Shown: positions 1-55,288, numbered from the stretch's first letter. The stretch: DNA of 64,000 bases from Amoebophrya sp. A120 (GCA_905178155.1 CAJINV010000010.1:1308451-1372450); one strand, 5' to 3'. Notes: generated by a model not told the origin, from the sequence alone. Numbers and translations: made by a program.

Positions 1-1794
1 GAAAACGGATCCGAAAACTGGCAACCCGCCGAGCATCGTAACGACTGATTTGCTTACGGTGGAAGACTACATTTGGCGGTGGGACGCGGATTGGTTTTGG
101 TGCACACAAATTTTCCCGGGGCTGCAATTTCAATTCATTCGGTATAGAGGTTAGTAGTCTTGTCTTGATGTTGTATGGCTCTTTTGCGCCTTTTCGGCTG
201 GCAAACTAACTCTCGACTCAGACTAAACGCTGCATCATGACAAGTTTTGTGCAGAAAAAATCGTAAAAATCGTCCAAAATTATCAGGTACCTCTGCGGCC
301 CGCGCCTCCTTCGATCTGATATGTACAAAGTTTTCAACGACAAGTTCACCCGTCTCCTCGCGAAAATCTTCCCGAAAGCGCAGGATATCCCACGAAAAAA
401 CTGCTTCACTGTGATGATTTTGCAAGATCTGCATTACAAGTTTTTTACACATGACACTGCAAATTTGACATGCGCGCTTCCCAAGGGAAAACGCGCCTGA
501 ATATCCCATGCCTTGGAGGTGTAGCAAGACAAATAGTTCTGTGCTCCATTTTCTGCATCACAAGTGCACAGCGCAGCAGTTTTTTCTTGCGATGCAGGAG
601 AACCAGGAGCTGGTGATCCAAGACATTGAGGTTCCGGTGGAAAATTCTGCTCACTGGTATCCACAGTAAATTCGCCGTACACGTACACATGCGGTCTCTG
701 CATGACAAAACTTGATTTCGATCCTAGTCTAGCATGACAAGTTTTACGCTCCAAATTGGTGAAATTTGTGATGCATGTTGTAAATGTACCGGAAATTTGT
801 ATTGCATAACTGGCTCCGTGAGCACTGCCGGATCGTCCGGTCGGATTTGTTCGGAAAAATCAAACTGATATGGATTGCAAAAATGTCTGGGTCTGGAAGG
901 ATGTAACTTGTGATGCTGCATTTGCATGCTACGAAAATCTGTATTGCATGAACAGCAAAAGAGGTCCAGTTTTTGCCATGGCGAGAGGGCATTTCTCATG
1001 CGGTATAGGCATCAGGAAGCCCTCGCAAAATCGGTGATGCTAGGGCATGCATCACAGACGTCAGTAATCATGCAAAACGTGCATGACAAACCTTGCATCC
1101 TGCCAGACCCAGGCATTTTTGCATTTGATAACTGAACTCGGATTACAACGTTGCGGAAACCACGACTACGGATTTGCCATGCAAACTGGAAATAATCGGA
1201 GGCACTACAGCAACTTCTTCTACACCGAATGTTATTGAATCAGGGCAGACACTGCTGGCTGCGGATGTTGAAGATGATGAAAACAAGCCGGCAACAAGTG
1301 GTGCCAACATGATGCGCGAGAGGAAAATTATGAAGGAGTCGACTTCTACTACGACTTGTTCTACGACTCCTCTCAAAAACCCGCCACGCCCGCTGTTCCC
1401 CTTCCACCAGCAGCAGCAAATCAAGAGAACAACCCGGCCCGACACGGTGCCGATCTGGCTATGTCCGGTGCGAGGGACCAGTGCGCCCTTGATGCCGATG
1501 GATGAGAATAAGCTGTACATCAACTTTGGGTTCTGGGACGCGCTGGAAGATACGACCACGAGACCCAAGGAGAGATGTACGACCCTGGGCGGGAACCAAG
1601 CGGGGAACGTGAACAGAGGGCTGGAGGCGATCTGCGACGAAAACGCGGCGATCAAAACGCTGTATTCCACGTGCTACTACACGGAAGAAGAGTTTTACCA
1701 GAAGTACAACGGGGAGCATTACAAGAAGATCAAGGAAAAATACGACGGGAATGGGCGGCTGCGGAGCTGGTTTGCGAGGGTGCGGGGGAGTTGA
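1..1794 (+). CDS. FAD-linked oxidoreductase, Delta24-sterol reductase / actinobacterial Rv3719(TmsA/BfaA)-like; 5' end lies outside the window
   Basis: Joined exons give EDYIWRWDADWFWCT...ELVIQDIEVP...PIWLCPVR...LYINFGFWD...KTLYSTCYYTEEEF...YKKIKEKYD. Removed segments: 142-286 (GT-AG), 386-599, 658-813, 869-1135 (element plus one TSD copy). Stop at 1792-1794. Confidence 0.75.
386..594. mobile_element. Introner family E (209 bp)
   Basis: TSD CAGGA; TIR TATCCCACGAAAAAACTGCT...AGCAGTTTTTTCTTGCGATG; sister copy at 53293 in opposite orientation. Confidence 0.85.
658..808. mobile_element. Introner, singleton (151 bp)
   Basis: TSD ACTGG; TAT...ATA ends; removal restores HW-LREH. Confidence 0.8.
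869..1130. mobile_element. Introner family A (262 bp)
   Basis: TSD ACTGA; TATGGATTGCAAAAATGTCTGGG...CCCAGGCATTTTTGCATTTGATA. Confidence 0.9.
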
Positions 1795-2029
1795 AGGAGG
1801 AGTTTGTGTCAGATTTGACAGTCCTCGCGCGAAAGTGGTTTTGATTTTGATGAAGACAGCACTTGAATTAGAGCCTTTGGCTGAGTCCTCGTCGGTCCTC
1901 GCAGGTTGTGCACTTCGAGGGAGGCCGAAAATGACTATGGCTCACAAAAACTTCTATACTTTTCTCGTCAATTTTCGAAGAGAAGGAATGAAACGAAGAG
2001 CACGATGAATACAATAGAAGACTTCGCCT

Positions 2030-3897: not shown

Positions 3898-6800
3898 ATG
3901 GCCTCGACGCAGCAGGCCCGGCGTCTTGTCGCGGGCGACGGCCCGCAGATTGCTTCTTCCAAGCTTTTCCCAAACCCAAAGGAGTTCCAATGCGACCAGA
4001 ACGCGGACTACTTGAAGAAGAGGTTGCAGGTGTGGGAAAAGGTGAAGGCCAAACACGAAAAGGCTGTTGCCGCTATTCCGAAAAAGCAAATCACCATCAC
4101 CCTGCCGGACGGGAAGCAGGTGCAGGGAACGAGCTTCGAAACCACTCCTTTAATGATTGCAGAGGGGATTTCCAAGAAACTAGCCGGGGACATTGTGGTG
4201 GCGAAGGTAGTAGAATTGGATAGTTCGTGCAGCTCTTGTATGGTCTGTGCATGACAATGACCAAGCACAACTCTGTTGCGTACTATTGCGCATGAGAAGG
4301 ATGGTTCGTAGTTGTCAACAAACCTATATTATAAGGTCTACTACACCGAGCCCATCGCCTCTTTAACGCAATGCGTCGCCGCGGATGAAGAGCCGGACTC
4401 CGATGCTGACGGATCTGATGACGAAGACGCGAAGGAGGACAAATTTGTTCTGTGGGACATCAGCCGGCCACTGGAGGGGAATTGTACGCCGGTGGTTCTT
4501 TTTGTGTAGTGGATGACTTCTGCAGCTCTTTGCCATTGGTAGCTTGAGGCGCGACCGCCCGTTGCTGTTCATCATGCTTCTGGAGCATGACAATTTGAAT
4601 TTCAACAATTTGCAGGTGCGGAATGTTCTTTGCCAGCATCACTAAATTTTGTTCTATAGGTACTCTCCACCTTTTGAAATTTGAGGACAAGCTTGCCTCC
4701 AACGTGTTTTGGCATAGTTCCGCTCACGTCTTGGGAGAAGCCATTGAGGTCGAATTTGGGGCGCACTTGACCATCGGGCCACCCTTGGAGCGTGGGTTTT
4801 ACTACGACGGCTTTTTCGGCGAGAAGAAAATCTCCACGACGGAAGACTTGCCGAAATTAGAGAAGCGCTGCCAGGAAATCGTGAAGGAGAGCCAGCCGTT
4901 TGAGCGGGTCGCCTTAAGCAAGGAGGACGCTCTGGAAATGTTCGCGGACAACCCGTTCAAGGTGCAGTTGATCACGAACAAAGTCCCGGATGGATCCATG
5001 ACCAGCTGCTACCGCTGCGGGCCGCTAGTCGATTTGTGCCGCGGGCCGCACTTGCCGTCCACGGGTAGATGCAAGTCCTTCTGGATCCACAAAAACAGCG
5101 CGAGCTACTGGTACTGATAATCTTCTATTTTGCATGCGACTGACGCTGATTTTCTACTGTTCCTGGTAAAAATAGTGATTCCATGATACAATGCCTTGTG
5201 ATTGTGTACGTGTACGACCTGCACTTTCAACACTTGGCGTGAAAGATAAAACCAGAAGCACGATTCACCACTTCCACCTAGGTTGGGGAAAGACAAGAAC
5301 GACTCCCTCCAGCGCATTTACGGTGTTTCTTTCCCCTCCGACAAGGAGTTGAAGCAGCACAAACTGATGCTGGAAGAAGCCGCCAAGCGCGACCACCGAG
5401 AAATCGGGCGGAATATGAACTGCAAAAGTATCGTACTAGTATAATTTGCATCACAAATCTTGGCAAGAAGAAGAGTGGAATTTGTAATGCTGTGTTACCT
5501 TAGAAAGGAGATTTGTAATGCATATTTGCAATTAGTACAAGTGCGATAGGTTTACACAGGATACGGAAGCAGGAGCTCTGGTTTTTCTCCGACTATTCCG
5601 CCGGGTCCTGCTTCTGGATGCCGCACGGCGCCCGGATCTACAACAAGTTGGTGAGCTTCATGCAGCGGGAGTACGCCATTCGCGGGTTTCAGGAGGTGAT
5701 CACACCAAACTTGGTGCACGAGAGTCTCTTCAAGGCTTCGGGGCACTACTACAAGTACAAAGACGACATGTACAGTATGAACATCGAGGGGGAAAGGTGG
5801 TTTTTGAAACCGATGAACTGCCTATGAGAGTGCACAACCCTCCCTCCCCCTCATGTGTATGGCATGAACAGCAATACAAGCAACAGCAGAAAATGGGCTT
5901 TCGCATGACAAATCTGCATGCGGATTGTAGTACTATGTATAGTTTGTCATGCTAACAGCGCGTACGAGCAAGGTGCGAGTTTGGTACTTTGCATTACAAA
6001 TGAGGGGGAGGGGGAGATGTGCACTGTAATACTGCCCCGGCGACTGCGTCATCTTCGGGCATCGCGTGCGGAGCTATCGGGAACTACCCTTGCGGATGGT
6101 TTCCTTTGGCGTGCTGCACAGAAACGAAAACAGTGGGGCGTTGAGTGGTAGATCTAAAATGTGCTGGCTTGAGTATTTTCTCTCTGTCAACATGATAAAC
6201 AGAAAACATCATTTGGAATAGTTGCATAGCATGTCGTATAGAAGTCGCGTGATCATGTTTTGATGCTTCAGCCGAAACTAAATAGCGAGATCCCTGTATA
6301 TACGTTTTAGGTCTGACCCGCGTCCGTCGCTTTCAGCAGGATGACGGGCATATCTTCTGCCGGATGGACCAGGTGAAGAGCGAAATCAAGTACGCGCTCG
6401 CTTTCGTGCGGTTTGTGTACCAGACGATTGGCTTGGAATACACGATGGTGCTCTCTACCCGGCCGAAAAAAGCCATTGGCTCTGAGGAGGTGTGGACGTA
6501 TGCGGAGAAGGAGCTTGCCGAGGCTCTGAACGAGAACGGTGAGCCCTTGGGCTTGAACAAGGGCGACGGGGCGTTTTACGGACCGAAGATCGACTTCAAA
6601 GTAGAAAATGAGAAACCGTGAGTTACAAATTTTCTTACCGTGAATGTTGGTAGATGAAGTACAACACGATCTAATTTAGGCCAGTTTCAAGCTTCAAAGC
6701 CGACAATTCCATAGCAAAGCTACTCAAAAAACAAAAAGTTTAAAACCGCACCAAACAACTTCTTTTCGTCATCTTCAGGCAAAAGACGCCCTGGGTCGGC

Positions 6801-9726
6801 AGCACCAATGCGCGACGATGCAACTGGACTTCCTGTTTCCGATGCGATTCAACCTCCAGTTCCGCACACAGGCGGACGAGCAGAAGGAAGCTGGCGAGCA
6901 GGCGGCTTTGGGTAACAAGGAAGGAGACAAGACAACTGCAGTTCCTCCGAAAGGCAAAAACGCCGCTTCTGGTGCCGCTGTTGCCATAAATGGGAACGCG
7001 GCCGCGCTGGCCTCCGCGGACGGGGACTCGGCGGGAACCAAATCCGCTGTCGACAAGGAGAAGGAAAAAGAGGCGAAATTGGATATAACCCGCTCAGGTG
7101 TTACAATCTCAAACGTTGCAATAGAGTATTGAAATCTGTGATGCAAGATTGCATGATCTAGCCAAGTCTCATAGGCTTGCGCATGACAAGTTCCAGAGCC
7201 CCAAGCCCCACTATAATCTCGCGAGATTTGTATTGCAAAAGGTGGAAAGCTGTGCGAGTCTGTCATGCTCATCATGCAGCACAAATTCCACATTCTATTG
7301 TAACGTTTGAGATTGTAACGGTTGAGCAAGTCATATTGGAAGCGTACGGGTTGGAGGGCGTCTTGAAACCGGGGCACGAGCGACCCGTGGTGATTCACCG
7401 GGCGATATGGATTGCAAAAGTGCCTGGGTCTGGAAGATTGCAACTTGTCATGCTAAATCCGAATCATGCAGAAATCTGTGTTGCATGACCGCCAAAAGCT
7501 GCCCACTTTCGACCATCTTTGGAAGAAGTTTCTCATGCAGGATAGGCATGGCAGAGACCTCACAGACTCTGTCATGCTAGGTCCCGCATTCCAGACCTCA
7601 TGGGTCATGAAAAACCTGCATGACAAGTTTACACTTACTTTTCCAGACCCAGACACTTTTGCATTTGATAGGCGATTATGGGATCGGTGGAGAGGTTCAC
7701 AGGTAGGAAATAGCAAGGATTCGAATTCGTACTAGTCCTAGTCGTGCTGCTTTACGGCCTACATTTATTTTGCATCATAAGATGAAATAGAATGAAGATG
7801 AGCATAATCTTCCGACGAGTTGTACCGCAATTTATAGATGATGCATGTTCATCAGCGCGTTCTTTATTTCTATCGCACACAAACACAAACACAAACTCAT
7901 ATAACTCATAAGTACGTACCAAACATACAGGCATCCTGTGCGAGCACTACGGTGGTAAGTGGCCATTTTTCCTCAGCCCGCGGCAGATCTATCCTGAGTA
8001 AAAACGTACCCACCCCAGAGTTGTCATGCAGATTTGCCATGACAGGAACATTTGTGATGCGCAACCCCATGACAGGCATTTTCAATCGTGTTTGGGAACT
8101 TGTAATGCTGTAAACAGGATCAGGAGGTCGATTTGTGATGCGGCTTTCCTTGCTAACTTGCACTACCTTACGGACTGAGACTTGTCATGCGTGACTCCTA
8201 AAGCTCCTAGGTTTGTGTTGCAAAATCCTCATCCTGACTCTGGTGTGGGTGCGTTTTTACTCAGGATAAGATCATGATCGTCCCCACCCACGCCGGCCTG
8301 AACAAGTACTGCGAGTACGTTATGCATTGCAAAAGTATCGTACTTCCAGTAGGTGTAGGAACACTCGCATTACAAATTTCCCCAAGAACAAAAATGGAAC
8401 TTGTCATGCTAGATCAGCTACAAGATTCGATTTGTCATGCAGGACTGCAATTGCCAAGAATCCGATGTTTTTGCGATGTATATTCATCGCGGAGCAGTAC
8501 CGCAACTTTGGTCTTTTCGCCGACGTCGACACCAGCAGTAAGACCATGAACAAGAAGGTCCGGGAGGCCCAGCTGGCCCAGTACAACTACGTTGCGATCT
8601 GCGGGGAGAAGGAGCAGGAAAACTTGTCAGTTAATTTGCGGGACCGGGACACGGGGAAACCGGTCGGGGAGTTCGGCTTGAATGATTCGGTGGACATGTT
8701 TGTCGCGAAATCCAACCCGAACAGCAAACCAGCGAACCAGTTTGACGCGTTTGAGGGACGCGTGCCGAAGCCGGCTAGTGCGGGAAGTAGTAGTTCTACT
8801 TCATCATCTGGAACAGGAACATCAACTGGAACTGCGACGAACTTCTCTGTGCAGAAGACGGACAACGACAAGAAGACATCTGCTGCCACTGCGGAGACCG
8901 CTGGCGCAACATCCACGACGAGCAACAAGAAGGAAAATCAATCCAGTATCAGAGGCAAAAATCCCCCCTCCCCATATCGAACAGGTATGCTTCCGAAAAT
9001 TTGTGTTGCTGATTTGAGGTCACGAATCTCGTTTGTCTTGCAAGAAGACAAGGGCAGAAGCTTCCGCCTCATTATGGAATTGATTTGTCATGCTGTTGGG
9101 CCTAAAGGCAAAGGGGAGGCGTTTGCCATGCTGAACAACTAGAGGACCCATACGCCCCTACCTAGCCTGGGGATCTGGCCGCAGGAGTGCCTCTGTGCAA
9201 TACAAACCGGATTTGCGTACACAAATCCAGCATCAGAAATTCCGTTTTGATATGGGGAGGGGGGATTTTTCCTTTCGATATCCAGCAAGAAAAACTGGGA
9301 GGCGCACTTCGCGGAGTTCCCGTACGCTGAGGGGTTTGAACTGTCTGAGACCGATAAGATATGCATTGCAAACATGTCTGATGAATCTGGAAGGATGCAA
9401 GGGTTGTCATGCTTGTCTAGCATGACTGAAGAGTTTGTGCTGCGTGTCCAAGAAGAGACCCTTTTGTTTGTCATGCAAAACGCAGTTTGTCACGCGGAAA
9501 GCGCAACACTAAGAAGCGCAAATATTTCTCATGCTTCGCTGTGCAATACAAAGAGTTCACTATTCACAATTCAGCATTACAAGTTTCCTTTTCCAGACCC
9601 AGACATATTTGCATTTGATATAAGAAACTCTTCGACGACTGCAACAAATCCGGGATGCCGAGCTCCGAGAATTTTCAGCGGTGGTTCGAGCATGTGGGGA
9701 GCTTGGTGCGGGCGGGACGCTGCTGA
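3898..9726 (+). CDS. TARS: Threonyl-tRNA synthetase, eukaryotic cytosolic type, copy 1
   Basis: TGS domain (ITITLPDGK), editing domain ([17 protein letters not shown]), core motifs [48 protein letters not shown], and anticodon domain ([13 protein letters not shown]). GT-AG introns: 4207-4335, 4484-4659, 5111-5281, 6148-6310, 6601-6778, 7703-7930. Also 8 introners. TGA at 9724-9726. Confidence 0.95.
5414..5563. mobile_element. Introner family B (150 bp)
   Basis: TSD CGGAA; TATGAACTGCAAAAGTATCG...CAGGATA; absent from ThrRS copy 2. Confidence 0.9.
5823..6031. mobile_element. Introner family D (209 bp)
   Basis: TSD CTGCC inside the KPMNCP motif; TIR with AGTGCAC and CTCCCCCTC. Confidence 0.9.
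7084..7335. mobile_element. Introner related to family F (252 bp)
   Basis: TSD TTGGA; ~40-bp imperfect TIR containing GTTACAATCTCAAACGTT. Confidence 0.88.
7406..7670. mobile_element. Introner family A (265 bp)
   Basis: TSD GGCGA inside IHRAI; same TIRs as the element at 869. Confidence 0.9.
7990..8268. mobile_element. Introner family C (279 bp)
   Basis: TSD AGATC; TIR TATCCTGAGTAAAAACG...CGTTTTTACTCAGGATA. Confidence 0.9.
8321..8482. mobile_element. Introner family B (162 bp) with decayed right TSD
   Basis: Left TACGT, right TTCAT; TATGCATTGCAAAAGTATCG start; paralog reads EYVAEQ without interruption. Confidence 0.85.
8947..9280. mobile_element. Introner, singleton (334 bp)
   Basis: TSD TCCAG; TIR AAAAATCCCCCCTCCCCATATC / GATATGGGGAGGGGGGATTTTT. 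Confidence 0.88.
9360..9620. mobile_element. Introner family A, subfamily A2 (261 bp)
   Basis: TSD TAAGA; close sister of the element at 20743. Confidence 0.9.
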
Positions 9727-10978: not shown

Positions 10979-13900
10979 ATGGCCACGACGCAGCAAGCCC
11001 GGCGTCTAGTCGCCGGCGACGGGCCGCAGATTGCTTCTTCCAAGCTTTTCCCGGATCCGAAAGAATTCAAATGCGGACAGAATGCGGAATACTTGAAGAA
11101 AAGATTACAGGTGTGGGAGAAGGTGAAGGCAAAACACGAGCAAGCGATCGCGAAAATCCCAAAGAAGGAGATCACGATCACACTGCCGGATGGCAAGCTG
11201 GTAAAGGGGACGAGCTTTGAAACCACGCCAGAATCGATTGCTGTTGGGATATCGAAGAAGCTGGCAGAAAAAATCGTCGTGGCTAAGGTACTGAGTGTTC
11301 GCGAGTAGAATCATGATCTTCACTTTGCTTTATGCAGAAGTGTGCCCGTGATGTGGTCTTCCTTTCAATCGGCGTCTACTACCGAAGAAAGCACGCGTTT
11401 TCATTTTCCGCATGACAAGCTAAATCACATTACAAAATCAGGTCTATTACTCCGAGACCATTGCGTCACTGTCTCAAGTAGTAAACGCCGATGAGGAGCC
11501 AGAGTCTGACGAGGATGGGTCAGATGACGAGGATATCCTGAGTAAAAACGTACCCACACCATAGTTGTCATGCAACTCTGCATGCTTAAAATGTTTCTCA
11601 TGCGGAGCCCCATGAGAAGCATTTTCTAATGCGGTTTTGAAATTTGTCATGCTCCAATCAGCACGAGATACTAGATCTGTAATGCTGCTAAACTAGCTTA
11701 AACAGCACTACACTACGCGGAGAAACTTGTCATGCCAAACAACCAAAGCTGGCTGATTTGTCTAGCAGATTCCCCATCTTGACTCTGGTGTGGGTACGTT
11801 TTTACTCAGGATAGAGGAAGACGCTAAGGACGAGAAATTTGTCCTCTGGGACATCTCGAGACCACTGGAAGGAAACTGTATTCTTGCAGCACTTCTTGTT
11901 TTTCAATTCTAACTCGCGTTGATCACTAAGCTCGGGGGCGTACTCCGCGTTGATCACTAAGCTCGGGGGCGTACTTATTTCCGGCAAGCTTTAATGCATT
12001 TCGCAAAGAAGCGAGCCGCCGGGCATTCAAGCCTGGGGCCTAATTTTTCTGTCCGACTTCCACGATCCTCAAGAGGCGACGGGGATAGTGGTTGTTTTCG
12101 TCGGGGGCTAAGGATTCTCTCCAGCTCTTAGGAAGTATCTTTTGAACGCCAAGCGTGAGGGTGGTAGCGCGAAGCGAACCCCAATTGAACTTCCCTTCAC
12201 TGCTAAAACGGGTGGTGTTGCGTCGTTCGAGATGCCTGGCTCTCAATGCAATCCAGAGCAGATGATTAGCCTTCAGAAAATTTAAGCGGTTATTAGTGCA
12301 GTTTCTGGCTCACCTAGGTAGCTCCTACAGTACCGAAGAAGCTTGTGCTGAATTGTTTTTCAATTCTGCACACCTTGGCTGCGTGACAGAGTTTTTTTTT
12401 GACGTGCATGCATTGCTTCTGGTTCTTTGCACTTCAACAAGCTGCTCTACTTTCTCGAGGCGCCTGTTTGCAGTGCTTTTCTGTAGTAGGTACAACCAGA
12501 TGAATTCATTTGTATTGCAAGACGACCATGAAGATCATGATCAACCGGCACGGAAATCATATCAGGCACCCTCCACCTCCTGACGTTCGACGATAAGCTT
12601 GCGTCCGACGTTTTCTGGCACAGCTCCGCTCACGTGCTGGGGCAGTCGATCGAAGTGGAGTTCGGAGCGCACTTAACCATCGGGCCCTCGTTGGAGAAAG
12701 GGTTCTACTACGACGGTTTTTTCGGAGACAAGAAAATTTCCACGACGGACGACCTGCCGAAATTAGAGAAGCGTTGCCAGGAAATCGTGAAGGAAAACCA
12801 GCCGTTTGAGCGGGTTACTCTGACCAAAGAAGACGCGCTCGAAATGTTCGCGGATAACCCCTTCAAAGTGCAGCTGATCACGAACAAAGTGCCGGACGGA
12901 TCCATGACCAGCTGCTACCGCTGCGGGCCATTAGTCGACTTGTGCCGCGGACCGCACCTGCCGTCCACGGGAAAATGCAAGTCCTTCTGGATCCACAAGA
13001 ACAGCGCAAGTTACTGGTATCATCTTTATATATCACGATGGTGTATGTTGTAGGTTTTTCTTGCAGCGAGTTTGAGACTTGCATGAAACTCAAGATGAAC
13101 ATGAAAGACGAATAAGTTGTTTTACCATCGTACCATCGGCTTCATCGTGTCACATAGGTGTGACGTCAATTATACCGATCTTTGTCAACAACAGTCCTCT
13201 GCGTCTGCGCCATGGCATGCGAGATGCCTATTTGCGTGGCACCGCACGCCTTTTCGCCACCGCACGCCCACGCCCACCCCTGCCGCCCCAGCTGCGCATA
13301 GCATGCTCGTCGCTCCGCTTTACGCCGCGCCGCGCTGTCTAAAACCAAAACCGCAACGCTGCGGTAGCAATATGTGCTTCCCAAAACGAACAAAATGCAA
13401 ACTCTAGGGAAGGAACTACAGCAACAAAACGAAAAGCATCATCTTGTTCCTCCCGATCATCCAAAACAAAAGTAGGCAAGAACCGCCCGAATGATCAAAC
13501 TAACGAACTACACAACTTCACCACAACAGGCTGGGTAAGGATAAGAACGATTCCCTCCAGCGCATCTACGGTGTCTCCTACCCCTCCGACAAGGAACTGA
13601 AACAGCACAAGACACAGCTCGAGGAAGCGGCTAAACGCGACCACCGGGAGATCGGGAAAAAGCAGGAGCTCTACTTCTTCTCCGACTTCTCCGCCGGCTC
13701 CTGCTTCTGGATGCCCCACGGCGCCAGGATTTACAACAAGTTGGTGGAATTCATGCGCCGGGAGTACGCGATTCGCGGGTTTCAGGAGGTGATCACGCCA
13801 AATCTGTACCACGAGTCTTTGTTTAAAGCGTCCTATGCATTGCAAAAGCATCGTACTAGTATAAATCGCAATACAAATTTTCTCAGAAGGAGAAATGGAG

Positions 13901-16381
13901 TTTGTAATGCTGATTTGGCTAAGAAACAAGATTTGTCATGCATGATTGCAATTAGTACTAGTGCGATACTTTTGCAGAGCATACGTCCGGACACTACTAC
14001 AAGTACAAAGACGACATGTACAACATGGACATTGTATCAAACAAAAAAGTGTTAACGTTAACGGTTTTCATAGATTGCAAATATGCATGACACATTTTGC
14101 CTAGCATGCGTGCTATGCATGACAAATTTGGGCGCGTTTTGTGATGCGTTACTGCATCACAAATTCCGTTGACGTTAACGCTTTTTCCTGTGATACCTTG
14201 AGGGGGAAAGATGGTTTCTGAAGCCCATGAACTGCCCAGGGCATTGCGTGGTTTTCGCGCACCGCGTGAGGAGTTACCGGGAGTTGCCGCTCCGGATGGC
14301 GTCCTTCGGAGTCTTGCACAGAAACGAGAACAGCGGGGCGTTGAGTGGTATACTTTTGTAGCCAGGGTTTTTTTTCTTTGACGCGAAGGAATGTGTAGTC
14401 AAATCAAAGTCGTGCACACTGTGCTGCGGTCCAGGAGGGGCTTGTTGAATGCTTGTATTGCGATGCTTTCTCTACTAAGTACGGGAGTACGAAATCCGTC
14501 TCAACATACAACTCGCACACCCAACCAATTACCAGGTCTGACCCGTGTCCGGCGGTTCCAGCAGGACGATGGCCATATCTTCTGCCGCATGGACCAGGTG
14601 AAATCCGAAATCAAAAACGCCTTGAAATTCGTGCAGTTCATCTACGAGACCATCGGTTTGGAGTACACCATGGTCCTTTCCACCCGCCCAAAGAAGGCAA
14701 TCGGCAGCAAGGAAGTGTGGGCCAACGCGGAGAAGCAATTAGCAGAGGCTTTGAACGAAAGCGGACTCCCGTGGGGGCTGAACAAGGGAGATGGGGCATT
14801 TTACGGACCGAAAATCGATTTCAAGGTATGTCGAGTTTTATTGGGATAGATTTTCAGATCCTTTTCGTTACATCACACAACATCTCGTAGTTGCTAAAGT
14901 TACAAGTTAGTATGCTTGTCGTTGTCACGCCGCATGTTGACACCAAAATCGGATTCTCATGATAGTGGCGTCAGGCTCACAAAGAAGATCAATCAATACT
15001 AGCGTCAAATATCATGCTTGTGTACATTCGATTGTGAACTCCCATTACCCCAGGTTAAAGACGCGATCGGGCGTCAGCACCAGTGTGCGACGATGCAATT
15101 GGATTTCCTTTTCCCGATGCGTTTCAACCTGCAGTTCCGCACGCAGGCGGACGAGCAGAAAGAAGCCGAGGCTGCCAAGGCCGAAGGAGAACAAGCACAG
15201 GCAGCAGGAGCTGCTCCGAAGGAAACCAAGGAGAACAAGAAAGACAAAAAAGCCGCTGCTGCTGCCGCTGAGCCGAAGGAACCGCGAGCGTCTGCTACGT
15301 CTGCAGATGGCGGTGCACCAGCGGCGGATGCTGGAAAATCTGCTGCCGACAAGGAGAAGGAAAAGGAACAGAGAATGGAAGCGGTTGGGTTGGAAGGTGT
15401 GCTGAAACCCGGTCACGAGCGGCCGGTCATGATCCACCGTGCCATTCTAGGATCCGTGGAGAGGTTCACAGGTACTGACGTGTAAGGGAGTCATGTAAGT
15501 TAAGATCTAGTGAGGTTTTTTCTTTGATGATGCAATAAACAATGTTGCGCTTCATCTACAACTGAATTGAAAGTGCAAGTGCTGTCTGCATGAAATCCAC
15601 ATCCAAATCAGGTATCCTGTGTGAGCACTACGGCGGCAAGTGGCCGTTCTTCATCTCCCCGAGACAGGTGATGATCGTCCCGACGCACGCTGGTTTGAAT
15701 AAGTACTGCGAGTACGTCGCCGAGCAGTACAAAAACTTCGGCATCTTCGCTGACGTCGACACCAGCAGCAAGACCATGAACAAGAAGGTCCGGGAAGCGC
15801 AGCTGGCCCAGTACAACTACGTTGCGATCTGCGGGGAGAAGGAACAGTCGGCGTTGGCGGTCAACTTGCGGGATCGCGACACGGGCAAGCCGCTCGGGGA
15901 GTTCTCGATTAAAGATTCCGTGGAGATGTTCGTCGCGAAATCCAACCCGAACAGCAAACCTGCGAACCAATTTGACGAATTTGAGGGCCAGAAGCCGGAG
16001 CCAATCGGCGCCGGGAAAAATGGTGCGTCTTCAAGCAGCTCCGCAGCTTCTTCTGCATCAAAACCAGAAAAGTTATCCGCGGAAACAGCAGGTGCGTCGA
16101 GCAAAAACGACTCTACTACTTCGAAGGAGACCACTGCAGCTGCTGGAGGTGCGAAGAACAAGAAGCAGGAACATCAGAATAATGGTGAGAACAACAAGAA
16201 CGGGGCAATAAAGAAGGATTGGGAGTCGCACTTCGCACAGTTTCCGTACGCTGGCGGATTTGAGATGTCCGCGACAGACAAGAAATTGTTCGAGGAGTGT
16301 AAGGGCGGCATGCCGAGTTCGGAGAATTTTCAGCGGTGGTTCCAACACGTAGGAAGCTTGGTAAGAAGTGGGATTGTGTAG
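10979..16381 (+). CDS. TARS: Threonyl-tRNA synthetase, copy 2 (tandem paralog)
   Basis: Same motifs as copy 1, with KPMNCPGHC intact. GT-AG introns at the same codon positions: 11288-11441, 11878-12565, 13017-13529, 14348-14535, 14826-15053, 15472-15611. Three introners. Confidence 0.95.
11534..11813. mobile_element. Introner family C (280 bp)
   Basis: TSD GAGGA; near-perfect TIR TATCCTGAGTAAAAACGTACCCACACC. Confidence 0.9.
11911..12352 (-). mobile_element. Probable 5'-truncated non-LTR retroelement fragment inside a GT-AG intron
   Basis: Exact 15-bp direct repeat TTGTTTTTCAATTCT at 11896-11910 and 12353-12367; ~31-bp tandem repeat at the left end; the equivalent intron in copy 1 is only 176 bp. 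Confidence 0.55.
13834..13983. mobile_element. Introner family B (150 bp)
   Basis: TSD CGTCC inside FKASGH. Confidence 0.9.
14035..14195. mobile_element. Introner, singleton (161 bp)
   Basis: TSD CATTG/CCTTG; TIR with GTTAACGTTAACGG / CCGTTGACGTTAAC. Confidence 0.85.
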
Positions 16382-22600: not shown

Positions 22601-22916
22601 CATTCCGTTGTTTTCGTTGCATGACAAACTTCTGAAACTCGGTAGCAATGTCTGATGCATCATCCACAATGCAAATTGCTATCAGGTCAACCGTACGTTC
22701 CTCCAGTCCCACACACTGAAGGACCTCTTCAACTGGGTCGAGGCGGCAGAGTACGCCGAAACGGGGACAAGTATCAAAGTCCCGAGCAAGTTCTCCCTCA
22801 ATACGTCCTTCCCCACGAAGTTGCTTCAGCGCAGCGACGAAAGCCTGAAGGACGCCGGGCTGGTGCCCAACGCGCAGGTTTTGCTACAGGATCTGTCCAG
22901 CGACGACGAAGAGTAA
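19633..22916 (+). CDS. UBX-domain p97/Cdc48 adaptor, FAF1/FAF2-like (UBA-UAS-coiled coil-UBX)
   Basis: UBA-like N-terminus (LEMSNWNVEQAI), UAS domain (PDFFDGTFQQA...KLLMVYFH), LRAEQDREYEEAL, UBX domain (IQVKFPTGQRVNRTF...TSFPT...SLKDAGL). GT-AG introns: 19903-20125, 21268-21456, 21538-21692, 22117-22255, 22466-22685. Four introners. Confidence 0.88.
20175..20319. mobile_element. Introner family B, reverse orientation (145 bp)
   Basis: TSD CAACG; TATCCTGTGCAAAAGTATCG...TTTTGCAGTTCATA. Confidence 0.9.
20388..20650. mobile_element. Introner family A (263 bp)
   Basis: TSD CGAAG/CGATG; family A TIR core. Confidence 0.88.
20743..21002. mobile_element. Introner family A2 (260 bp)
   Basis: TSD CTACG; sister of 9360. 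Confidence 0.9.
21761..22020. mobile_element. Introner family A2 (260 bp)
   Basis: TSD AATCG/AACCG; TATCAAGTGT...GCAATCCATA. Confidence 0.85.
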
Positions 22917-41728: not shown

Positions 41729-42659
41729 TACTATTTTTTCAGGAACAAGAACGAGCCGCGCAGGAGATGGTGACCACACATCAGATAGTACTACATCGTC
41801 TGGAGGCAGTGGAAGTGCCAGTTGCTGTTGCAGCTACATTGTGATAATTTTCGGAGTTACAGGAGGGTGAGGTTCTCGTATCCATTGAAGATTATAATCT
41901 AAAAAGTCAATGAGTTTATTGGGAGGACTCATCAAGAAGAAGAACTGAAGATAGACCGATGGACAGCATTGCTGTCAGTTTGCAGGACTATCCATCGTGG
42001 TTGATAGAAATAAAAGAAAGCTCCCGGCTTCCAGAATGGATTTAATAAGAAAGGATTTCATATTTTCAATTTCAATGACATTGACATGTAAAGCACGACC
42101 ACGACGAACATCACCTCCAATACACCGTAAAAAAAAAAAAAAATGCTAGTCGTCTACTACGTACGATGGAGCTCCTGACGGAAGTGTTGTCATTTTTGTA
42201 ATGTGTTGTTTGGTCATCCTCCAGTTCCAGTTGTCTCGCAGTTCCTCCTTTCCTATTTCGATCATTCCGCACGTAGATCACGAGGCAAACTAAACAGCGA
42301 AAAAAGTTGTATCATCTACTTCGGTCAAATCTAGGGCTTGCTGCATTTTTTTATTTGTGGTACTTACATGACAGATGTTGAGATCAGAACAATTACAATA
42401 GTCTTGTACCAACTATAGATTGTTGACAAACTGAACCGTGCGAAAGAGGACGAAGCGGAGGATCTAGGAAGTAGATTCAAACTACGTCAAGTAGACAACA
42501 CCATCGCAGTATGATGGACGTGCTGCCAAAAGATCCATACTAAACCACTTACATACCATTTTTTTTTTTCTGAAGAAGAAGGGACATTTTGCTGGGAAGA
42601 TGAAGATGAAGATGGAGCTAGACTTCTACCGACCAGCTGCATGGCCGACGACCTTATAA

Positions 42660-43627: not shown

Positions 43628-43664
43628 ATGAAGATGGAGCTAGACTTCTACCGACCAGCTGCAT

Positions 43665-47823: not shown

Positions 47824-50800
47824 ATGATGATCAACTTTTGGTTCTTTTCCTCCGTCGCTCACGCGACAGGAGCCAGCAGCAGCGTTATTTCATCCAGTAC
47901 AACTAGAGCCCCCGCCTACAACACGAGTCCGAGACTCGTAGAAAACGGGGCCGCACCACCAGCAGCAGCACGGTCTCGCTCCTCCAAGACCACATTACGG
48001 CGCATGGGAAAAAGCAGAGGCTCCATGTTGAATTTGGAAGCAGCGGGATGGCACAATAACCTCGGAGCAGGCGGGATGATTAACAACAACTCCGGTAGTA
48101 CTAGTCAAGATCTTCAAGAAATAAGACAAGCTCATCTACCCTCCTCACCTGGGACGTTTACGATGGAACAAATAGGCCCCTCCACTTCATCTGGTGCGGC
48201 GCGGCCGGAAGTTGATGGTGCTGCATCAACTTCAGCAGCGCGGGGAACAGCTTCTGGGGTCGTATTGACCAGCACGCCTACTTCTCCACATCAAGATCCT
48301 GTCGCTTTCCAGCCCCAGAAGAAGTCTCGTCAGCAGCAGAATCTTGATATGATAGTGCACGACTCCTCCTCCACCCTCTCGTTTGTGTTGCATGAACAGC
48401 AACACAAGCGCTGACAAAGATGCAGCTTTTGCATGAGAAATTCCTGGAGGATTTTAGTGCTGTTTTGGATTCCGGATTCTGTCATGCAAACAGTGCTAAC
48501 AGGCATAGGGTGGACTTGGAATTTTGCATGACAAATGAGGGGGAGGGGGAGTTGTGCACTTTCATACTTGAGCGGGCAAATCGACGAAACGTTCCCGGTG
48601 TCCCAAAGCCAGGGGCTCCAATTAATATCGGCGTACAACTACAGGCAGGGCAGTCACGACCCTTCGTGTCCGCAACTTTTCTTCCGATAGGAGATGATGG
48701 TGGGACGACAGCACCCGCTGGTAATACTAATAGCGGAGCGGCACGTCAACCATCGGCTAATTATCATGCGGGTGACGGTGGTGCATATGATTATCCGAAA
48801 AGTGATCCCACCGCTCTTGCTGCTGGTGATTTGGCACACGCACAAGGAAGTGGCGCTGCGCAACAAAGCACCGATCCGATAACTTCACCCAGTGGGGGTG
48901 AACCACGACGAAATACAGGGCCAGCGGCCAGCAGCGGAGCTACTTCAGCAGCCATGCCGCTGAGTCTTGAACAGTGGTGGGATCAGACTACGAGGGACAA
49001 AGACGACACGCTGGCCTCGTCTATCGTGCGGGCTAGAGTATGCAGTGCAAAAGTATCGTACTCGTCGTATAAATGCATTACAAATTTTCTCAGCATGAGA
49101 AATGTAATGCTGATTTACCATAGCATAAGAAGAAGATCTGTAATGCATGATTCTTGCAATTACTACGAGCAGTACGATACTTTTGCACAGGATACAGAGA
49201 GCAGCGCAGCAACATTGGCGGGTCATCGGGGACAGGATCTTCTGCGGGGACCATTGGAAGTACGAACGATGTTGTGGGCGGAGTCTTGTCTCCCCAACAG
49301 AGTTCTGGGGGCGGGTACGCAGCGCTGCAAAGTGGCCAACCCGTGCAGACGTCCTCGCAATCTGCTTTCAGCAACAGCGGTCTTCATGCCCAAGAAATAA
49401 GTCCGATGCAGCGCCGCAATTCTGTCAGCGGACGCCTTTTTGGAGCAGGACAAAATGGAGCATCTACTTCATCTCCATCGCCAACGTCGGTCTTCAACAA
49501 CCACGGCGTCTTCCAGAAACATTTTCATCGGCAGCAAGTGATGTCGAGAAGCGTGGGCAACAGTCCGGCCGCTGGGATGAGATCGGCACAGCAGATGAAG
49601 AACGTAGGACCACAGGCGCAACGACTGTATAGTACAGACTCAAACGACCGTCTTGGGGGCCGCAGTAGAGGAGCTGACTCGACGACAATGCGCCACGTTG
49701 ATGTGACACCACATAGTACTTTAACTGATCAACATCACCTCACCATGAAAGCCTCGAGCGGCCGTGGGCGATCGCTTACGCAGGGCCGCTCCTCCAGGGC
49801 GGGCGCGGGAACAACTACCGGTGGAGCTGGTGCTACGGGGAATATTAACATGCGTGGAAGAGGAAGTTGCGCACAGCAAAATCAACACTATCACCATGCT
49901 CCTGCGTCTCAATACTCCGGATCCTCCTGCAGTCCTGGCGTGACCTCTCCGTTCGCGCCCCACGGGCGCGGCCACGGGCTCATTACCAGAACTCTGTACG
50001 AAAGTCACTTGCAGCAACATCAGCAACAGCTGTACGAGCAGGAGCAGGAAGATGCAAGAAGAAGAGCATTATACATCAACCCATACGGTCGCCCACCAGC
50101 ACCTTACGGACAATCCCCCTCCCCGCCCTCCGATAATATGTCGCAGTCCCTTCCGCGGACGATTGGAACGATCAGCAGTTTTTTGGGTGGCGAAAGCCGC
50201 GCCCCGTCAGGTTGTCGACACGTAAGCAGCTGCGGGAGCATATCTTCTCCGGTGGAGCATGATATTGTGGTGGACGAAGTAGACGATCCGTTTCCGTACA
50301 GCTGCAGGAGGTCTTGTTCCCGTGAGGACCACCCGCTGGGCAGAAGCATGTCCGCGACGTCCCGAGAGGCTGGTGCTGGACCACGGGGGGGCAGCTCTAC
50401 AACTTCCAGAGAAGAAGTAGAAGACGTCGCTTTTGACCTCCGGCCCACCTCTCTTGATGCCCCTGCTGCTGCTCGTCTCGCACGGGCGTCAGCATCTTAC
50501 CATTACCTGATGAGCGGCGGTGATTTGTCGGACGATATTAACAACATTCCCGACGTCGAGAGAGGGAACTCGTCAAGCAATCTATGCATTGCCAAAGTAT
50601 CGTGCGTAGTATGAATCGCATGACAACAAATTACTTTATAAATAGTCTCAAGAAGAAACTTGGAATTTCTCATTCAGGTACGACTACGAGGCCAGATTTG
50701 TAATGCATGACTGCAATTCAATACACGATTGCGATACTTTTGCAGAGGATGCGACTGGTTCCAACAACTGCTCACCTATGGTCCAGGAACTCCATTATCA

Positions 50801-53700
50801 AATGCATATTGCATGTCTGGGTCTGCTGGTGGAAAGTTGTGATGCAAATCGCTGAAGAATGGTGGCCGCGGACTCCTGCAAAGATAAGCAGCCAAGCATA
50901 ACAAATTTTTGAGCAGCTATGTGTTCCGTTTTTCGCATCACAGTCACAAACTGCGTTTTTTCTTTTATTTCTCCTTATGCATCACACAGTTAAGAATTAT
51001 CTCAGCCCGCTCGAACATGTTGAGAAACTTGCACTCTTGTTCCATATTAGTTATCACCCAGACATATTTGCTATGCATATTCCCCGCCAGAGGAAGAGTT
51101 CGCCGATAGCGAGTGCTCGCACAGGAGCAGGGCGCATTCACCGCTAGTGAATCAAAGGGCCAGCTGGGTGGATGAGCGTCATGCTCATGAGGTGTCTGAA
51201 GCCAGCAGCAGAAGCTCCTCGCCGGAACTTCGCCCGGGCGGAGTTGTTGATGGTACTAGATGCTGTATTTTACTTAATACTATGGTGCTCTTGCTGAGGG
51301 ATTCGGTTTACATTCAGCGTTCAGCACTGGTAATGTTATTCTGCAATAAAGTTGCTGACTCTGTTGATGAAGACCGCGACGCGATGAAGATGTTTCAGTT
51401 TCGGCATCGCTTCTTTATTCGTAGGGATTTTTCTGTTTCTATTTAGTTTCTTCAATTTCCTTTCCGTTTCCGGTGTGATTGAATACAATTGACGAGGAAA
51501 ATTTCAACCTCTTATTTCTTCATCAGGTCCTACTATGCAATTGCTGTCCACGGTTGCAGCTACTCCCGCGGGACCACATCCGTTAGCGCCACCGTCCGAT
51601 CCGGAGCAAAGCCGGCGCCAAGAGGTTGAGGTAGTGAGATCTTTACGAGATGTTGCCCTCCTGTGCTGATGTTTGATGTGCAGGCGCACGTAGGTGTAGT
51701 TTCTATCTAAGTAGAACTACTAGAGTTAGGAATTTGTTGTTAACGAAAATCTTACCTTGTTCGCTAAGCAAGCTCAATGGTAATGGACCACTTCACCGAC
51801 CGCTGCATTTGAAAAAAAAAAAATGCTAACAATTTTGTGCAGGCCTCGCCACAGAATCAAGTTTCTTCGGCTAGTAATGCAGGGCATCAAGAACAAGCGG
51901 AGGCTCTTTCTTCCGTGGACGACCGGGATCAACATCTGCAGTTGCTGCAAGTGCTTCCCTATAATCATCCAGACGCTGCATCTGATCGTCGTCCCAGAAG
52001 TAGCATCTTCGTCCCGCCGCGGCAGTTTTCTTCTGAGGGTCGTTGCACGACTGACCCGCCCTTTTCTCGACAGAATACCGTCAGCTCCCAAGAAGAGTCG
52101 TCGTCTGGCAACAGCGGTTCATTGCAGCGCGCAGGAGCGGTCTCCTCTTCGGTTAGTACAGAAGCAGTACGACGAGTGTCCAAACGGGGCTTGCACGACC
52201 AGCACCAGCACGGGACGAGCCAACTGTGCAAGAACAGAGCGGCCTGGGACGATAAAGGGCTGTCGTCTACTCCTGATTCCGCCGACGGGCGGGTGATGAC
52301 GGGCGGTGCAGCTGGCGCTGTCGATGACGGTACTACTCAGATGGAGATGAATGCAGATGCTGGCGATGCAGCTGGTGAACAAGAGTACTATACGGATGAA
52401 AATTCTGACCATGATTCCGTGGTCTCCGGGCCGCAAACCCTCAGCCAGCTTCTGGGATTGCAGCTCCGGAACGACGGAAACAGTAGGAGCTCAAGTAAGA
52501 CACCTTCTTCATCGTCTTCGCAAGAAGAACAACACGATCCAGACGGTGCAGTAGAAGTAGAGGCGGCTCGCCGACGAGACACAGACACCTCAACATCTTC
52601 CCCAGCACATGGATCATATGAAGATCCGAGGGAGATGATGATCTTCCCACCAACTGGCGGTGCTGCCCACACCGGTCCACCACAAATGTTGACAGCTTGT
52701 TCATCTCTCCAGAGAGTCGGATCCTCAGCATCTGCCTCTGCGATGCAGCTGCACCAAAAGGGAATAAATACAAAGGATTTATTGTACTCTACTACTTCTA
52801 CTACACTGAGCTGCACAAGAACTCCTGGTGGTAGTTGTGCCACGAGGACCTCCCAGGAGCCGGCGCGGGGAAGTAGAGAAGTCGGGGATCGTTGTGGTTC
52901 TCATCGTGCAGAGGGGTCAGGAGCGCCTGCTGGTTATGGTTTCCCGCCGAAGACTAGTAGTACATCAACTTCCGGACTACTGATATGGCGTTCTCAAACG
53001 TTACATTCTCAAATGTTGCAGGGATTTGTGATGCAAAGACGGCAAAAGAGAAAGGGGCGAGCTTGCAACTCTCGCATCACAAATTCGGCACAGATGTCGA
53101 TGCTGTCTAGCCTTTAGCCCTTCGAGAATTTATCATGCGAAGCAGCTTGGTAGTCTGCAGGCTCGTGGTCATTTTGCATGACAAATCATGTAACAGTTGA
53201 GAGTGTAAGGCTTGCGAATGCCATAACTGAAAGCGAAGAAAAACTCGACAAGCTTCTCGAGCGGACTATCTGACTACATGCTCAACATGCACTATCGCAA
53301 GAAAAAACTGTTTCACTGTAAACTTGTAATGCAGAAACTGTATCTCAAAAGTGTTTGTCTTGCTACACATGCAAGACAGGCGATTTTTGGCTGTGTTTTC
53401 CCTTAGAAACCTCGCATGGCAAGTTTTCCCTGTCACGTGTAACGAACTTGTCATGCCAAACTTGCAAAATCCTTACAGTGAAACACTTTTTTCTCACGAT
53501 ATGCACACACCGAAATATCAGGCTGAAGAAAATCTTCACCCACAACTTCTGCACCTTCGAGTTGTAAGTAAAGTCATTATGCAAGCTGCATATTTTATAC
53601 CACAAGCATTTGTTTTTGTGCACGTATTTATGCATGCATGATTTGTGCGAGTTGAAAACCGAAATTATCACGGATGGTCGATGAAATAGAAACTGTTGTT
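47824..53700 (+). CDS. Orphan low-complexity (S/G/T/Q-rich) protein with signal-peptide-like N-terminus; 3' end uncertain, possibly extending to 54072
   Basis: ORFs 47791, 48420, 49154, 51147 and 51837 join in frame after removing 6 introners and GT-AG introns at ~51253-51526 and 51631-51842; a further donor GTAAGT at 53564. Confidence 0.6.
48348..48566. mobile_element. Introner family D (219 bp)
   Basis: TSD CTTGA; TIR TATGATAGTGCAC / GTGCACTTTCATA. Confidence 0.9.
49039..49194. mobile_element. Introner family B (156 bp)
   Basis: TSD TAGAG/CAGAG; family B TIR. Confidence 0.88.
50583..50751. mobile_element. Introner family B, degenerate (169 bp)
   Basis: TSD CAATC/CGACT decayed; ends in GGATG. 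Confidence 0.8.
50796..51079. mobile_element. Introner related to family A, degenerate (284 bp)
   Basis: TATCAAATGC...GTCTGGG / CCCAGACATATTTGCTATGCATA; TSD TCCAT/TTCCC. Confidence 0.8.
52984..53225. mobile_element. Introner family F (242 bp)
   Basis: TSD ACTGA; sister of 30070. Confidence 0.9.
53293..53501. mobile_element. Introner family E (209 bp)
   Basis: TSD TGCAC; TATCGCAAGAAAAAACTGTTTCACTGTA...TACAGTGAAACACTTTTTTCTCACGATA. Confidence 0.9.
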
Positions 53701-55195: not shown

Positions 55196-55288
55196 CCCCT
55201 CCTCAATCGCTGCGGCGGTGGTGCTAACCTGGATAACGTCCTACCGCACTCCCCTCCTGAACGCGCTGTGGTAAACTAGCTACCCTCT

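What the first reader, a model, noticed from the sequence alone, without database searches (positions are those of the whole stretch)
386..53506. 33 TAT...ATA inverted-repeat elements acting as non-GT-AG introns, found only in coding exons
Seen: each element has 5'-TAT...ATA-3' termini (a few decayed), imperfect TIRs and a 5-bp TSD of free sequence. They sit inside conserved motifs of housekeeping genes (ThrRS KPMNC|P and IHRA|I, V-ATPase F KKD|P). Removing the element plus exactly one TSD copy restores the frame every time. I count at least 7 families plus singletons and saw none in intergenic DNA. Known: introner elements with inverted and direct repeats are reported from Amoebophrya, but their excision machinery is, to my knowledge, unresolved. 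Inference: a precise removal system reads the TAT/ATA stem rather than GT-AG. It could be an altered spliceosome, a non-spliceosomal RNA route, or DNA-level excision like ciliate IESs.
Basis: partly seen in the sequence, partly recalled or inferred. Interest (0 to 1): 0.92.

Follow-up and report, generated by a model that had tools for sequence, protein, structure and literature searches.

The report
Amoebophrya hairpin transposon introns
These are already described mobile-element introns of the algal parasite Amoebophrya: small hairpin-ended insertions that sit in coding sequence and are missing from spliced transcripts together with one copy of their 5-base target duplication, likely cut out by a relaxed spliceosome that would need only a U near the start and an A near the end.

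Summary
Real, but known. I find 32 TAT…ATA elements with a 5-bp target duplication (22 perfect; 0 in 20 shuffles) plus one fully decayed copy. All lie in coding frames, in 8 families plus singletons. The exons match public Amoebophrya sp. A120 proteins at 100%, and Farhat et al. 2021 already describe TAT-starting, direct-repeat-flanked introner elements there. Removing the element plus one duplication reproduces three annotated proteins exactly; three RNA-like contigs agree. DNA contigs show no excised form, so DNA-level excision is unlikely. Added here: the duplication is 5 bp (166 of 245 perfect in 71 related loci), 233 of 243 copies there have coding-like flanks, and both orientations occur. 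The cut lies at least 4 bases into the upstream duplication. All 20 canonical donors are GTA. Terminal mutations are strand-biased (13:1), sparing the first T and the third-last A. This points to a U1-less spliceosome using an N-U-A donor and perhaps a branch A at −7; that step is inferred, not shown. The scan noted similar hairpin introns on other genomes before, none on this one.

The parts
386..594 (+). element, 209-bp family b (reverse of 53293); 3' end ATG; duplication perfect
658..808 (+). element, 150-bp family, reverse orientation
869..1130 (+). element, 262-bp family; RNA-like contig resumes at 1130 as one-duplication removal predicts
3898..9726 (+). host gene ThrRS copy 1: 6 GTA-AG introns, 8 elements; model identical to P0002 (943 aa) for cut register 4 or 5
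5414..5563 (+). element, 150-bp family
5823..6031 (+). element, 209-bp family a; empty site in ThrRS copy 2
7084..7335 (+). element, singleton
7406..7670 (+). element, 262-bp family
7990..8268 (+). element, 279-bp family
8321..8482 (+). element, 150-bp family; duplication copies differ at positions 2 and 4; annotated protein keeps upstream bases (register >= 4)
8947..9280 (+). element, singleton
9360..9620 (+). element, 260-bp family; RNA-like contig resumes at 9620 as predicted
10979..16381 (+). host gene ThrRS copy 2: the same 6 intron positions, 3 other elements; model identical to P0001 (961 aa) for register >= 2
11534..11813 (+). element, 279-bp family; RNA-like contig length fits removal of element + 5 bases
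13834..13983 (+). element, 150-bp family
14035..14195 (+). element, singleton; duplication differs at position 2
19633..22916 (+). host gene UBA/UBX (FAF1-like) protein: 5 GTA-AG introns, 4 elements; model identical to P0121 (469 aa) for register 4 or 5
20175..20319 (+). element, 150-bp family, reverse orientation
20388..20650 (+). element, 262-bp family; duplication differs at position 4
20743..21002 (+). element, 260-bp family
21761..22020 (+). element, 260-bp family; duplication differs at position 3 (silent)
25347..26354 (+). host gene V-ATPase subunit F
25425..25595 (+). fully decayed element: TAC..ATA, duplication lost; its last 10 bases are the reverse complement of the first 10 of element 25991; at register 4 the intron starts GTA and ends without AG
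25991..26298 (+). element, 306-bp family
27250..35845 (+). host gene of unknown function: 2302-aa frame after removal of 7 elements, no canonical intron needed
   Evidence: no Pfam hit on 5 exons
28469..28736 (+). element, 262-bp family; 5' end TAC
28801..29106 (+). element, 306-bp family
29383..29637 (+). element, 262-bp family, reverse orientation; reads GT..AG at register 4
30070..30308 (+). element, 240-bp family
31752..31903 (+). element, 150-bp family; duplication differs at position 5 (silent): best site to fix the register from RNA
31960..32238 (+). element, 279-bp family
34186..34338 (+). element, 150-bp family
48025..53563 (+). putative host gene (low complexity, no relatives found): about 1270-aa frame after removal of 6 elements and 2 GTA-AG introns
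48348..48566 (+). element, 209-bp family a
49039..49194 (+). element, 150-bp family; duplication differs at position 1
50583..50751 (+). decayed element, 150-bp family; 3' end ATG; duplication 2 of 5
50796..51079 (+). decayed element, weak match to 260-bp family; duplication 2 of 5
52984..53225 (+). element, 240-bp family
53293..53501 (+). element, 209-bp family b

Best explanation
These are Amoebophrya A120 introner elements, likely non-autonomous DNA transposons, that duplicate 5 target bases inside coding sequence and are absent from spliced transcripts together with one duplication copy; the cut is likely made by a relaxed U2-type spliceosome. Shown: the anatomy, the 5-bp duplication, removal of element + 5 bases, both orientations, and a cut at least 4 bases into the upstream copy. 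Inferred: the cut is at register 4, so the intron reads N-TA(T)…ATA-NNNN. The element's first T would then be the spliceosomal U+2 and its next A the +3 A of this genome's GTA-only donors. The third-last A would sit 7 bases before the 3' cut and could be the branch point. The long stem would bring the two ends together in place of U1 and of AG recognition. Because TAT…ATA is its own reverse complement, either orientation supplies both bases. Copies likely persist only in exons because excision there would leave a 5-base frameshift (inferred, untested).
For: Organism and prior description; PMC7789003 sections read. Exact removal: models identical to P0002, P0001, P0121; the element+2 alternative gives 951 and 964 aa instead of 943 and 961. 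RNA-like run X3 skips canonical introns, and at 3 elements fits element+5 (pieces resume at 1130 and 9620; record 12 holds 151 letters between pieces, where element+2 predicts 154). Paralogs share 6 of 6 canonical intron positions and 0 of 11 element sites. Register >= 4 at 2 sites and >= 2 at 1 site. 20 of 20 canonical donors are GTA with no consensus beyond +3, in line with U1 snRNA not being found. All 9 'predominant' A120 boundary types in Table S4 have T second, and all 9 for A25 start TT. The decayed V-ATPase F element starts GTA at register 4, and this model matches the spacing of one solved homolog (35 residues; the canonical AG alternative gives 41). Strand-biased terminal variants: first T 0 vs last A 6 (p 0.03); third base 7 vs third-last A 1 (p 0.07); pooled 13:1 (p 0.002). 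Stems fold: mean z -6.6 for 32 elements vs -0.2 for 19 other introns. Both orientations about equal in 134 assigned copies.
Against: No lariat, branch point or spliceosome dependence was observed. Register 4 vs 5 is not settled: the informative window sites are silent or have no homolog. The one kinase site favouring 4 (L065) rests on a recalled conserved Gln. The annotated proteins come from the same RNA-guided pipeline as the paper, so they are not independent. Table S4 boundaries may reflect aligner preference. The pooled 13:1 test was chosen after seeing the data, leaves out the middle pair (2 vs 1, which shows the +3 A is not absolute) and includes 5 weak strand calls. No enrichment of G or AG in the duplication at any register in 148 oriented copies: no trace of ordinary spliceosomal preference. 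Canonical introns have no fixed A at -7 (7 of 20). Raw RNA reads of a related strain (X11) carry one element end joined to flank in several hundred reads, so some copies may be retained or DNA was present.
Confidence: 0.55

Rival explanations
1. A separate, non-spliceosomal RNA cut-and-join system, as suspected for euglenid nonconventional introns, measures fixed distances from the paired stem, perhaps recruited by the shared internal GCATNACAA motif.
For: Duplication sequence is free, with no G or AG preference. Strong stems. Same offset geometry as the Euglena code, which has a short 5' and longer 3' spacer around a paired motif (abstract of PMC12501133). All 32 elements carry the internal motif.
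Against: The spared first T matches U+2 of the genome's own GTA donors, and a decayed copy has drifted to a GTA donor. 83 of 89 spliceosomal proteins and U2, U4, U5, U6 are reported in A120. 6 of 32 elements lack the motif on the transcribed strand. A relaxed spliceosome has precedent in Fritillaria (abstract of PMC13326754).
Confidence: 0.25
2. Spliceosomal removal, but at register 5 (intron starts exactly at TAT) or at a loose register within the duplication, guided by the stem alone.
For: All protein-based tests in the window allow register 5. With a perfect duplication every register gives the same product. The paper draws the splice sites as variable relative to the hairpin (legend of Fig. 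3).
Against: Does not explain why the spared bases fall on +2/+3 of a GTA-like donor, or the GTA start of the decayed copy. Three of three informative sites keep the upstream bases, which argues against a loose register.
Confidence: 0.15
3. Programmed DNA excision, like ciliate internal eliminated sequences.
For: Transposon-like ends, TA at the termini, and precise removal with one duplication copy.
Against: DNA-like run X1: contigs run unbranched 22-34 bases into elements at 8 junctions at single-copy depth 23-29 (only 1 of the 8 meets the tool's 31-letter bridging rule, rare variants are dropped, and X1 may be the assembly's own source). None of the 15 joints shown skips an element plus 5 bases (686 not shown). 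Strand bias relative to transcription is not expected of a DNA-level process.
Confidence: 0.03
4. The interrupted genes are silent copies, or use cryptic GT-AG sites.
For: Whole genome not available to search; 2 of 32 elements do have a canonical register.
Against: Both ThrRS copies are interrupted (truncated at 356 and 143 aa if elements stay), the paper's Table S3 lists only two cytosolic ThrRS genes for A120, and spliced RNA-like contigs cover them.
Confidence: 0.02

Closest known systems
Introner elements / non-canonical introns of Amoebophrya sp. A120 (Farhat et al. 2021, PMC7789003; read sections 10, 11, 12, 16, 25, 32 and supplement text parts 2-3; figures not visible)
   Same: Same organism by 100% protein identity; inverted repeats starting TAT, direct repeats of 3-5 nt (5-bp example), about 240 nt, many families, RNA-seq-supported removal, no transposase found, U1 snRNA not found.
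   Different: The paper reports variable splice motifs and repeat lengths. Here the duplication is 5 bp and the geometry fixed. The exon-only distribution, register >= 4, GTA-only canonical donors, strand-biased terminal constraint and shared internal motif were not in the parts I could read.
A120 introners in Gozashti et al. 2025 (PMC12130899; passages on Amoebophrya read)
   Same: Attributes A120 introners to diverse TIR DNA transposons and retroelements; one TIR family has Copia/Gypsy-like frames.
   Different: No coding capacity in any element here; mobilising enzyme not identified.
Euglenid nonconventional introns (PMC12501133 abstract; PMC11282704 passages)
   Same: Non-GT-AG introns whose ends are joined by a terminal stem, cut at fixed spacers, with duplication-like repeats.
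   Different: Paired motif is CAG/CTG with 3 and 5-6 base spacers and a purine at exon start; here TAT/ATA with 0-1 and 4-5 base spacers and no purine rule beyond background.
Fritillaria borealis MITE-derived non-canonical introns (PMC13326754 abstract; PMC11282704 passages)
   Same: MITE-derived introns handled by an altered spliceosome.
   Different: Retain specific end motifs and U1; both intron ends here are free sequence if register 4 holds.
Micromonas / Aureococcus introners (as described in PMC11282704 and PMC7789003 passages)
   Same: TIR- and duplication-bearing non-autonomous elements that create introns.
   Different: They bring or co-opt canonical GT/AG sites; 30 of 32 here cannot.

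Membership tests
Amoebophrya A120 introner elements | Host is Amoebophrya A120 | tested here: met
   exons 100% identical to proteins named A120
Amoebophrya A120 introner elements | Terminal inverted repeat of 8-20 nt starting TAT | tested here: met
   31 of 32 start TAT, 1 TAC; 30 of 32 form >= 10 terminal pairs
Amoebophrya A120 introner elements | Direct repeat of 3-5 nt at the boundaries | tested here: met
   5 bp; 24 of 32 perfect; 166 of 245 perfect in related loci, 4-bp 2, 6-bp 0
Amoebophrya A120 introner elements | Repeated in families | tested here: met
   8 families, 64-84% identity; element bins at depth 5,000-118,000 vs 23-45
Amoebophrya A120 introner elements | Removed from mRNA without GT-AG | tested here: met
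   3 elements in run X3; 15 by identity to annotated proteins
MITE (non-autonomous TIR DNA transposon) | Short, TIRs, fixed duplication, no coding capacity | tested here: met
   111-511 bp, longest stop-free stretch 129 aa in the 4 longest copies
MITE (non-autonomous TIR DNA transposon) | Cognate autonomous element with the same ends and a transposase | tested here: inconclusive
   none in the window; one 2.86-kb copy is a nested insertion with no Pfam hit in 6 frames tested; genome not held
U2-type spliceosomal intron | GT/GC…AG ends | tested here: not met
   2 of 32 in any exact register
U2-type spliceosomal intron | U at +2 of the intron | tested here: inconclusive
   true for all if register 4; register 4 vs 5 unresolved
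U2-type spliceosomal intron | Lariat with branch A; dependence on U2/U5/U6 | not testable with these tools
   no raw reads of this strain covered the genes; snRNA alignments are figures
Ciliate-type internal eliminated sequence | Excised from DNA | tested here: not met
   no excised form in run X1 contigs at 8 junctions (weak for rare or stage-specific forms)
Euglenid nonconventional intron | CAG…CTG paired motif at +4 / -8 | tested here: not met
   terminal logos show TAT/ATA and no such motif

The most novel reading that the evidence does not exclude
A120 runs a second, non-spliceosomal mRNA repair system that recognises its own transposons by their terminal stem and internal GCATNACAA repeats and removes element plus duplication at a fixed register in either orientation, making exons a safe harbour for tens of thousands of insertions.
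Probability: 0.2. Interest if true: 0.9.

Novelty: already known. Interest (0 to 1): 0.45.

Why it matters
The elements and the open question are published; what this window and 71 related loci add is a concrete, testable splice code. If the apparent diversity of A120 splice sites is one geometry seen through a free 5-base duplication (N-U-A donor, A at -7, no G, no AG), it would show how little a spliceosome needs when RNA structure holds the ends. It would also explain how transposons can flood exons in both orientations without harm, and give a simple rule for annotating these genomes. Mismatched duplications let existing RNA-seq fix the register at once.

Tried and rejected
No whole genome held, so no genome-wide search for an autonomous element or intact paralogs. 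No RNA holder was on record in the run search; X3-X6 are guessed RNA, and X3 behaved as spliced RNA. Raw RNA runs X9 and X11 did not cover the genes. The exact register from RNA at mismatched duplications remains open. A Y-N-N-N-R target preference and a lack of T after the duplication, seen in the 32 window copies, did not repeat in 148 oriented copies: rejected as chance. Direction of duplication mismatches (34 elements) was uninformative. Internal GCATNAC as an obligatory branch site: rejected, 6 of 32 lack it on the transcribed strand. No relatives of the gene at 48-53 kb. No match of a family terminus in viral contigs. No Rfam match in the window. Short-exon searches of solved structures gave nothing useful for V-ATPase F exon 2 or the L065 kinase. 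Three long TAT/ATA candidates in the window, 41458-41859 and a candidate near 53970-54184 were rejected as chance; one locus candidate (L012 3428) was dropped before the variant count because it overlaps two other elements. Roy et al. 2023 (Curr Biol) is not held.
Full report
Observation. A scan for a 5-base repeat flanking TAT…ATA gave 26 matches, 22 with at least 12 of 20 terminal bases complementary. Twenty shuffled windows gave none of the latter; with one defect allowed, 29 real matches stood against a shuffle mean of 0.25. Self-BLAST added three decayed copies and one was read by eye (8321), giving 32 elements of 145-334 bp. A 33rd, fully decayed copy is the first V-ATPase F intron. I rejected 41458-41859. 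The copies fall into 8 families at 64-84% identity plus 3-4 singletons, and members of three families lie in both orientations inside + strand genes.

What it is. Two window exons are 100% identical to proteins that the sources name Amoebophrya sp. A120. Farhat et al. 2021 (PMC7789003; sections read; supplement text; figures not visible) describe exactly this: 65% non-canonical introns, inverted repeats starting TAT, direct repeats of 3-5 nt with a 5-bp example, 29,850 repeated copies, no transposase found, U1 snRNA not found, most other spliceosome parts present. The class is therefore known and the mechanism is stated there as open.

Exact removal. Removing each element plus five bases gives proteins identical to the public ThrRS (943 and 961 aa) and UBX (469 aa) records. 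Keeping the elements truncates the ThrRS copies at 356 and 143 aa; removing element plus two bases, which also keeps frame, gives 951 and 964 aa. These records come from the paper's transcript-guided pipeline, so they are supportive but not independent. The two ThrRS paralogs share 6 of 6 canonical intron positions and none of 11 element sites, so the elements arrived after the duplication. In one search, run X3 (guessed RNA) skips canonical introns. Its pieces resume at 1130 and 9620, the positions predicted by one-duplication removal, and record 12 holds 151 letters between two pieces, which equals the exon minus element 11534 minus five. The joints table was filled by repeat copies and showed 15 of 701 rows, so only these 3 of the 14 elements in that stretch could be read.

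DNA or RNA. In the same call, contigs of the DNA-like run X1 pass 22-34 bases into elements at 8 junctions without branching, at single-copy depth. Only one meets the tool's 31-letter rule, rare variants are dropped and X1 may be the assembly's source, so this is moderate evidence against DNA excision. Raw RNA runs X9 and X11 did not cover the genes. X11 put 458 reads on the ends of the 279-bp family, joined to one foreign flank; that may be a retained copy or DNA in the library.

Wider sample. A 24-base terminus matched 71 loci (304 kb) of one metagenome assembly; whether it is the same strain is unknown, as only repeats matched the window. A detector that did not ask for a duplication found 245 elements: 166 with a perfect 5-bp repeat, 36 with one mismatch, 43 worse (some are inner false ends, as 2 of 30 window calls were); 4-bp repeats occurred in 2 and 6-bp in 0. 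With a coding model trained on the window genes, 233 of 243 element sites scored as coding, against 234 of 240 coding controls, 36 of 240 non-coding controls and 187 of 316 random locus positions. In the window, 32 of 32 in coding sequence has a chance of about 2e-11 even at a generous 46% coding share. The exon-only claim thus holds well. Orientations were about equal (69 same, 65 opposite; 48 unassigned). The duplicated bases are close to coding background in 148 oriented copies, with no G or AG excess at any register.

Where the cut lies. Where the two duplication copies differ, the annotated proteins keep the upstream base at positions 2 and 4 (8321), 4 (20388) and 2 (14035), so the cut is at least 4 bases in. 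Four leads favour exactly 4. First, 20 of 20 canonical donors in the window are GTA with no consensus further in, and register 4 makes every element start N-T-A. Second, the 9 predominant A120 boundary types in Table S4 all have T second (may be aligner bias). Third, the decayed V-ATPase F copy starts GTA at register 4 and ends without AG; this model puts 35 residues between two landmarks, as in the one solved homolog found (E 1.2), while the nearest in-frame AG gives 41. Fourth, a kinase site in L065 gives Gln only at register 4 or less; that Gln is usual there is recalled, not tested. Register 5 is not excluded.

Which bases matter. Of 17 single terminal variants (14 in loci, 3 in the window), oriented by host strand: first T 0 against last A 6; third base 7 against third-last A 1 (strand uncertain); second base 2 against second-last 1. 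The two outer pairs pooled give 13:1, p 0.002 (chosen after seeing the data; five strand calls are weak). A DNA-level or pure pairing process would be symmetric, and tolerated variants such as TAC and ATC break pairs. The spared bases are the intron's +2 U and an A seven bases before the 3' cut, if register 4 holds. That U+2 and a branch A are the least replaceable intron bases for spliceosomal chemistry is established knowledge, recalled. Elements fold into long stems (mean z -6.6 vs -0.2 for 19 other introns).

Mechanism. Shown: insertion with a 5-bp duplication, removal with one copy, both orientations, register at least 4. Inferred (about 0.55): a U1-less spliceosome takes N-U-A as donor and the third-last A as branch point, with the stem replacing end recognition. 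Rivals: a non-spliceosomal route as suspected in euglenids (0.25), register 5 or loose (0.15), DNA excision (0.03), silent copies (0.02). The exon-only pattern may come from insertion preference or from loss of non-coding copies by excision, which in exons would frameshift; neither was tested. All 32 elements carry GCATNAC repeats (52 and 60 on the two strands vs about 3 expected), often 35-50 bases from an end, as expected of transposase-binding repeats (recalled); a weaker excess in canonical introns (7 vs 1.4; 1 of 200 shuffles) is unexplained. No autonomous partner was found.

Novelty. Already known as a class and in this organism. Literature searches found no paper stating the fixed register, the GTA-only donors or the strand bias, but Roy et al. 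2023 is not held and the figures of Farhat et al. (Fig. 3, S14-S25) could not be seen and may contain part of this. Of other papers I saw passages (PMC12130899, PMC11282704, PMC11453091, 10.1101/2024.09.05.611473) or abstracts (PMC12501133, PMC13326754). The scan noted similar hairpin introns on four other windows of other genomes and none on this genome. Interest 0.45: not surprising to a specialist, but it makes an open question directly testable.

Noticed in passing
window 54668-60896: Young Copia LTR retrotransposon on the - strand: 528-bp LTRs about 99% alike, TG…CA ends, 5-bp target duplication, frames of 399 and 1163 aa separated by one stop, RVT_2 hit. No introner inside. Same duplication length as the introners, different ends.
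   Followed up: partly
window 25424-25599: V-ATPase F intron 1 starts GTA but appears to end without AG; it keeps one arm of the 306-bp family terminus, suggesting that old elements decay into ordinary-looking introns.
   Followed up: yes
canonical introns, window 4207-51842: All 20 donors are GTA with no consensus from +4; GCATGAC is enriched on the transcribed strand (6 vs 0.4 expected).
   Followed up: partly
L065 3001-5860: A 279-bp-family element split by a 2.6-kb nested insertion ending in a run of A, inside a kinase exon, with both ends and the duplication intact; whether it is still spliced is unknown.
   Followed up: partly
L065 about 2790-2955: An intron read by eye that starts GTA and has ATA four bases before its likely non-AG end, with a 3-of-5 duplication: another decayed element.
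   Followed up: no
window 11942-12316: A different repeat inside the 688-bp ThrRS copy 2 intron: raised depth in X1 and an 84% match in L037.
   Followed up: no
window 11534-11813: Run X11 (related strain, RNA library) has hundreds of reads joining this family's end to one AT-rich flank: possibly an unspliced copy in an untranslated region.
   Followed up: no
window 19960-20051: An AG…GT-bounded stretch inside the first UBX intron that the public protein skips; including it shifts the frame.
   Followed up: no
window about 43200-43520, 38640-38740 and 63815-64000: Tandem repeat arrays (about 39-bp palindromic units; 14-15-bp units; 14-bp units).
   Followed up: no
window 36563-38002 and 40859-41728: Low-complexity open frames of 479 and 289 aa without elements or Pfam hits.
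   Followed up: no
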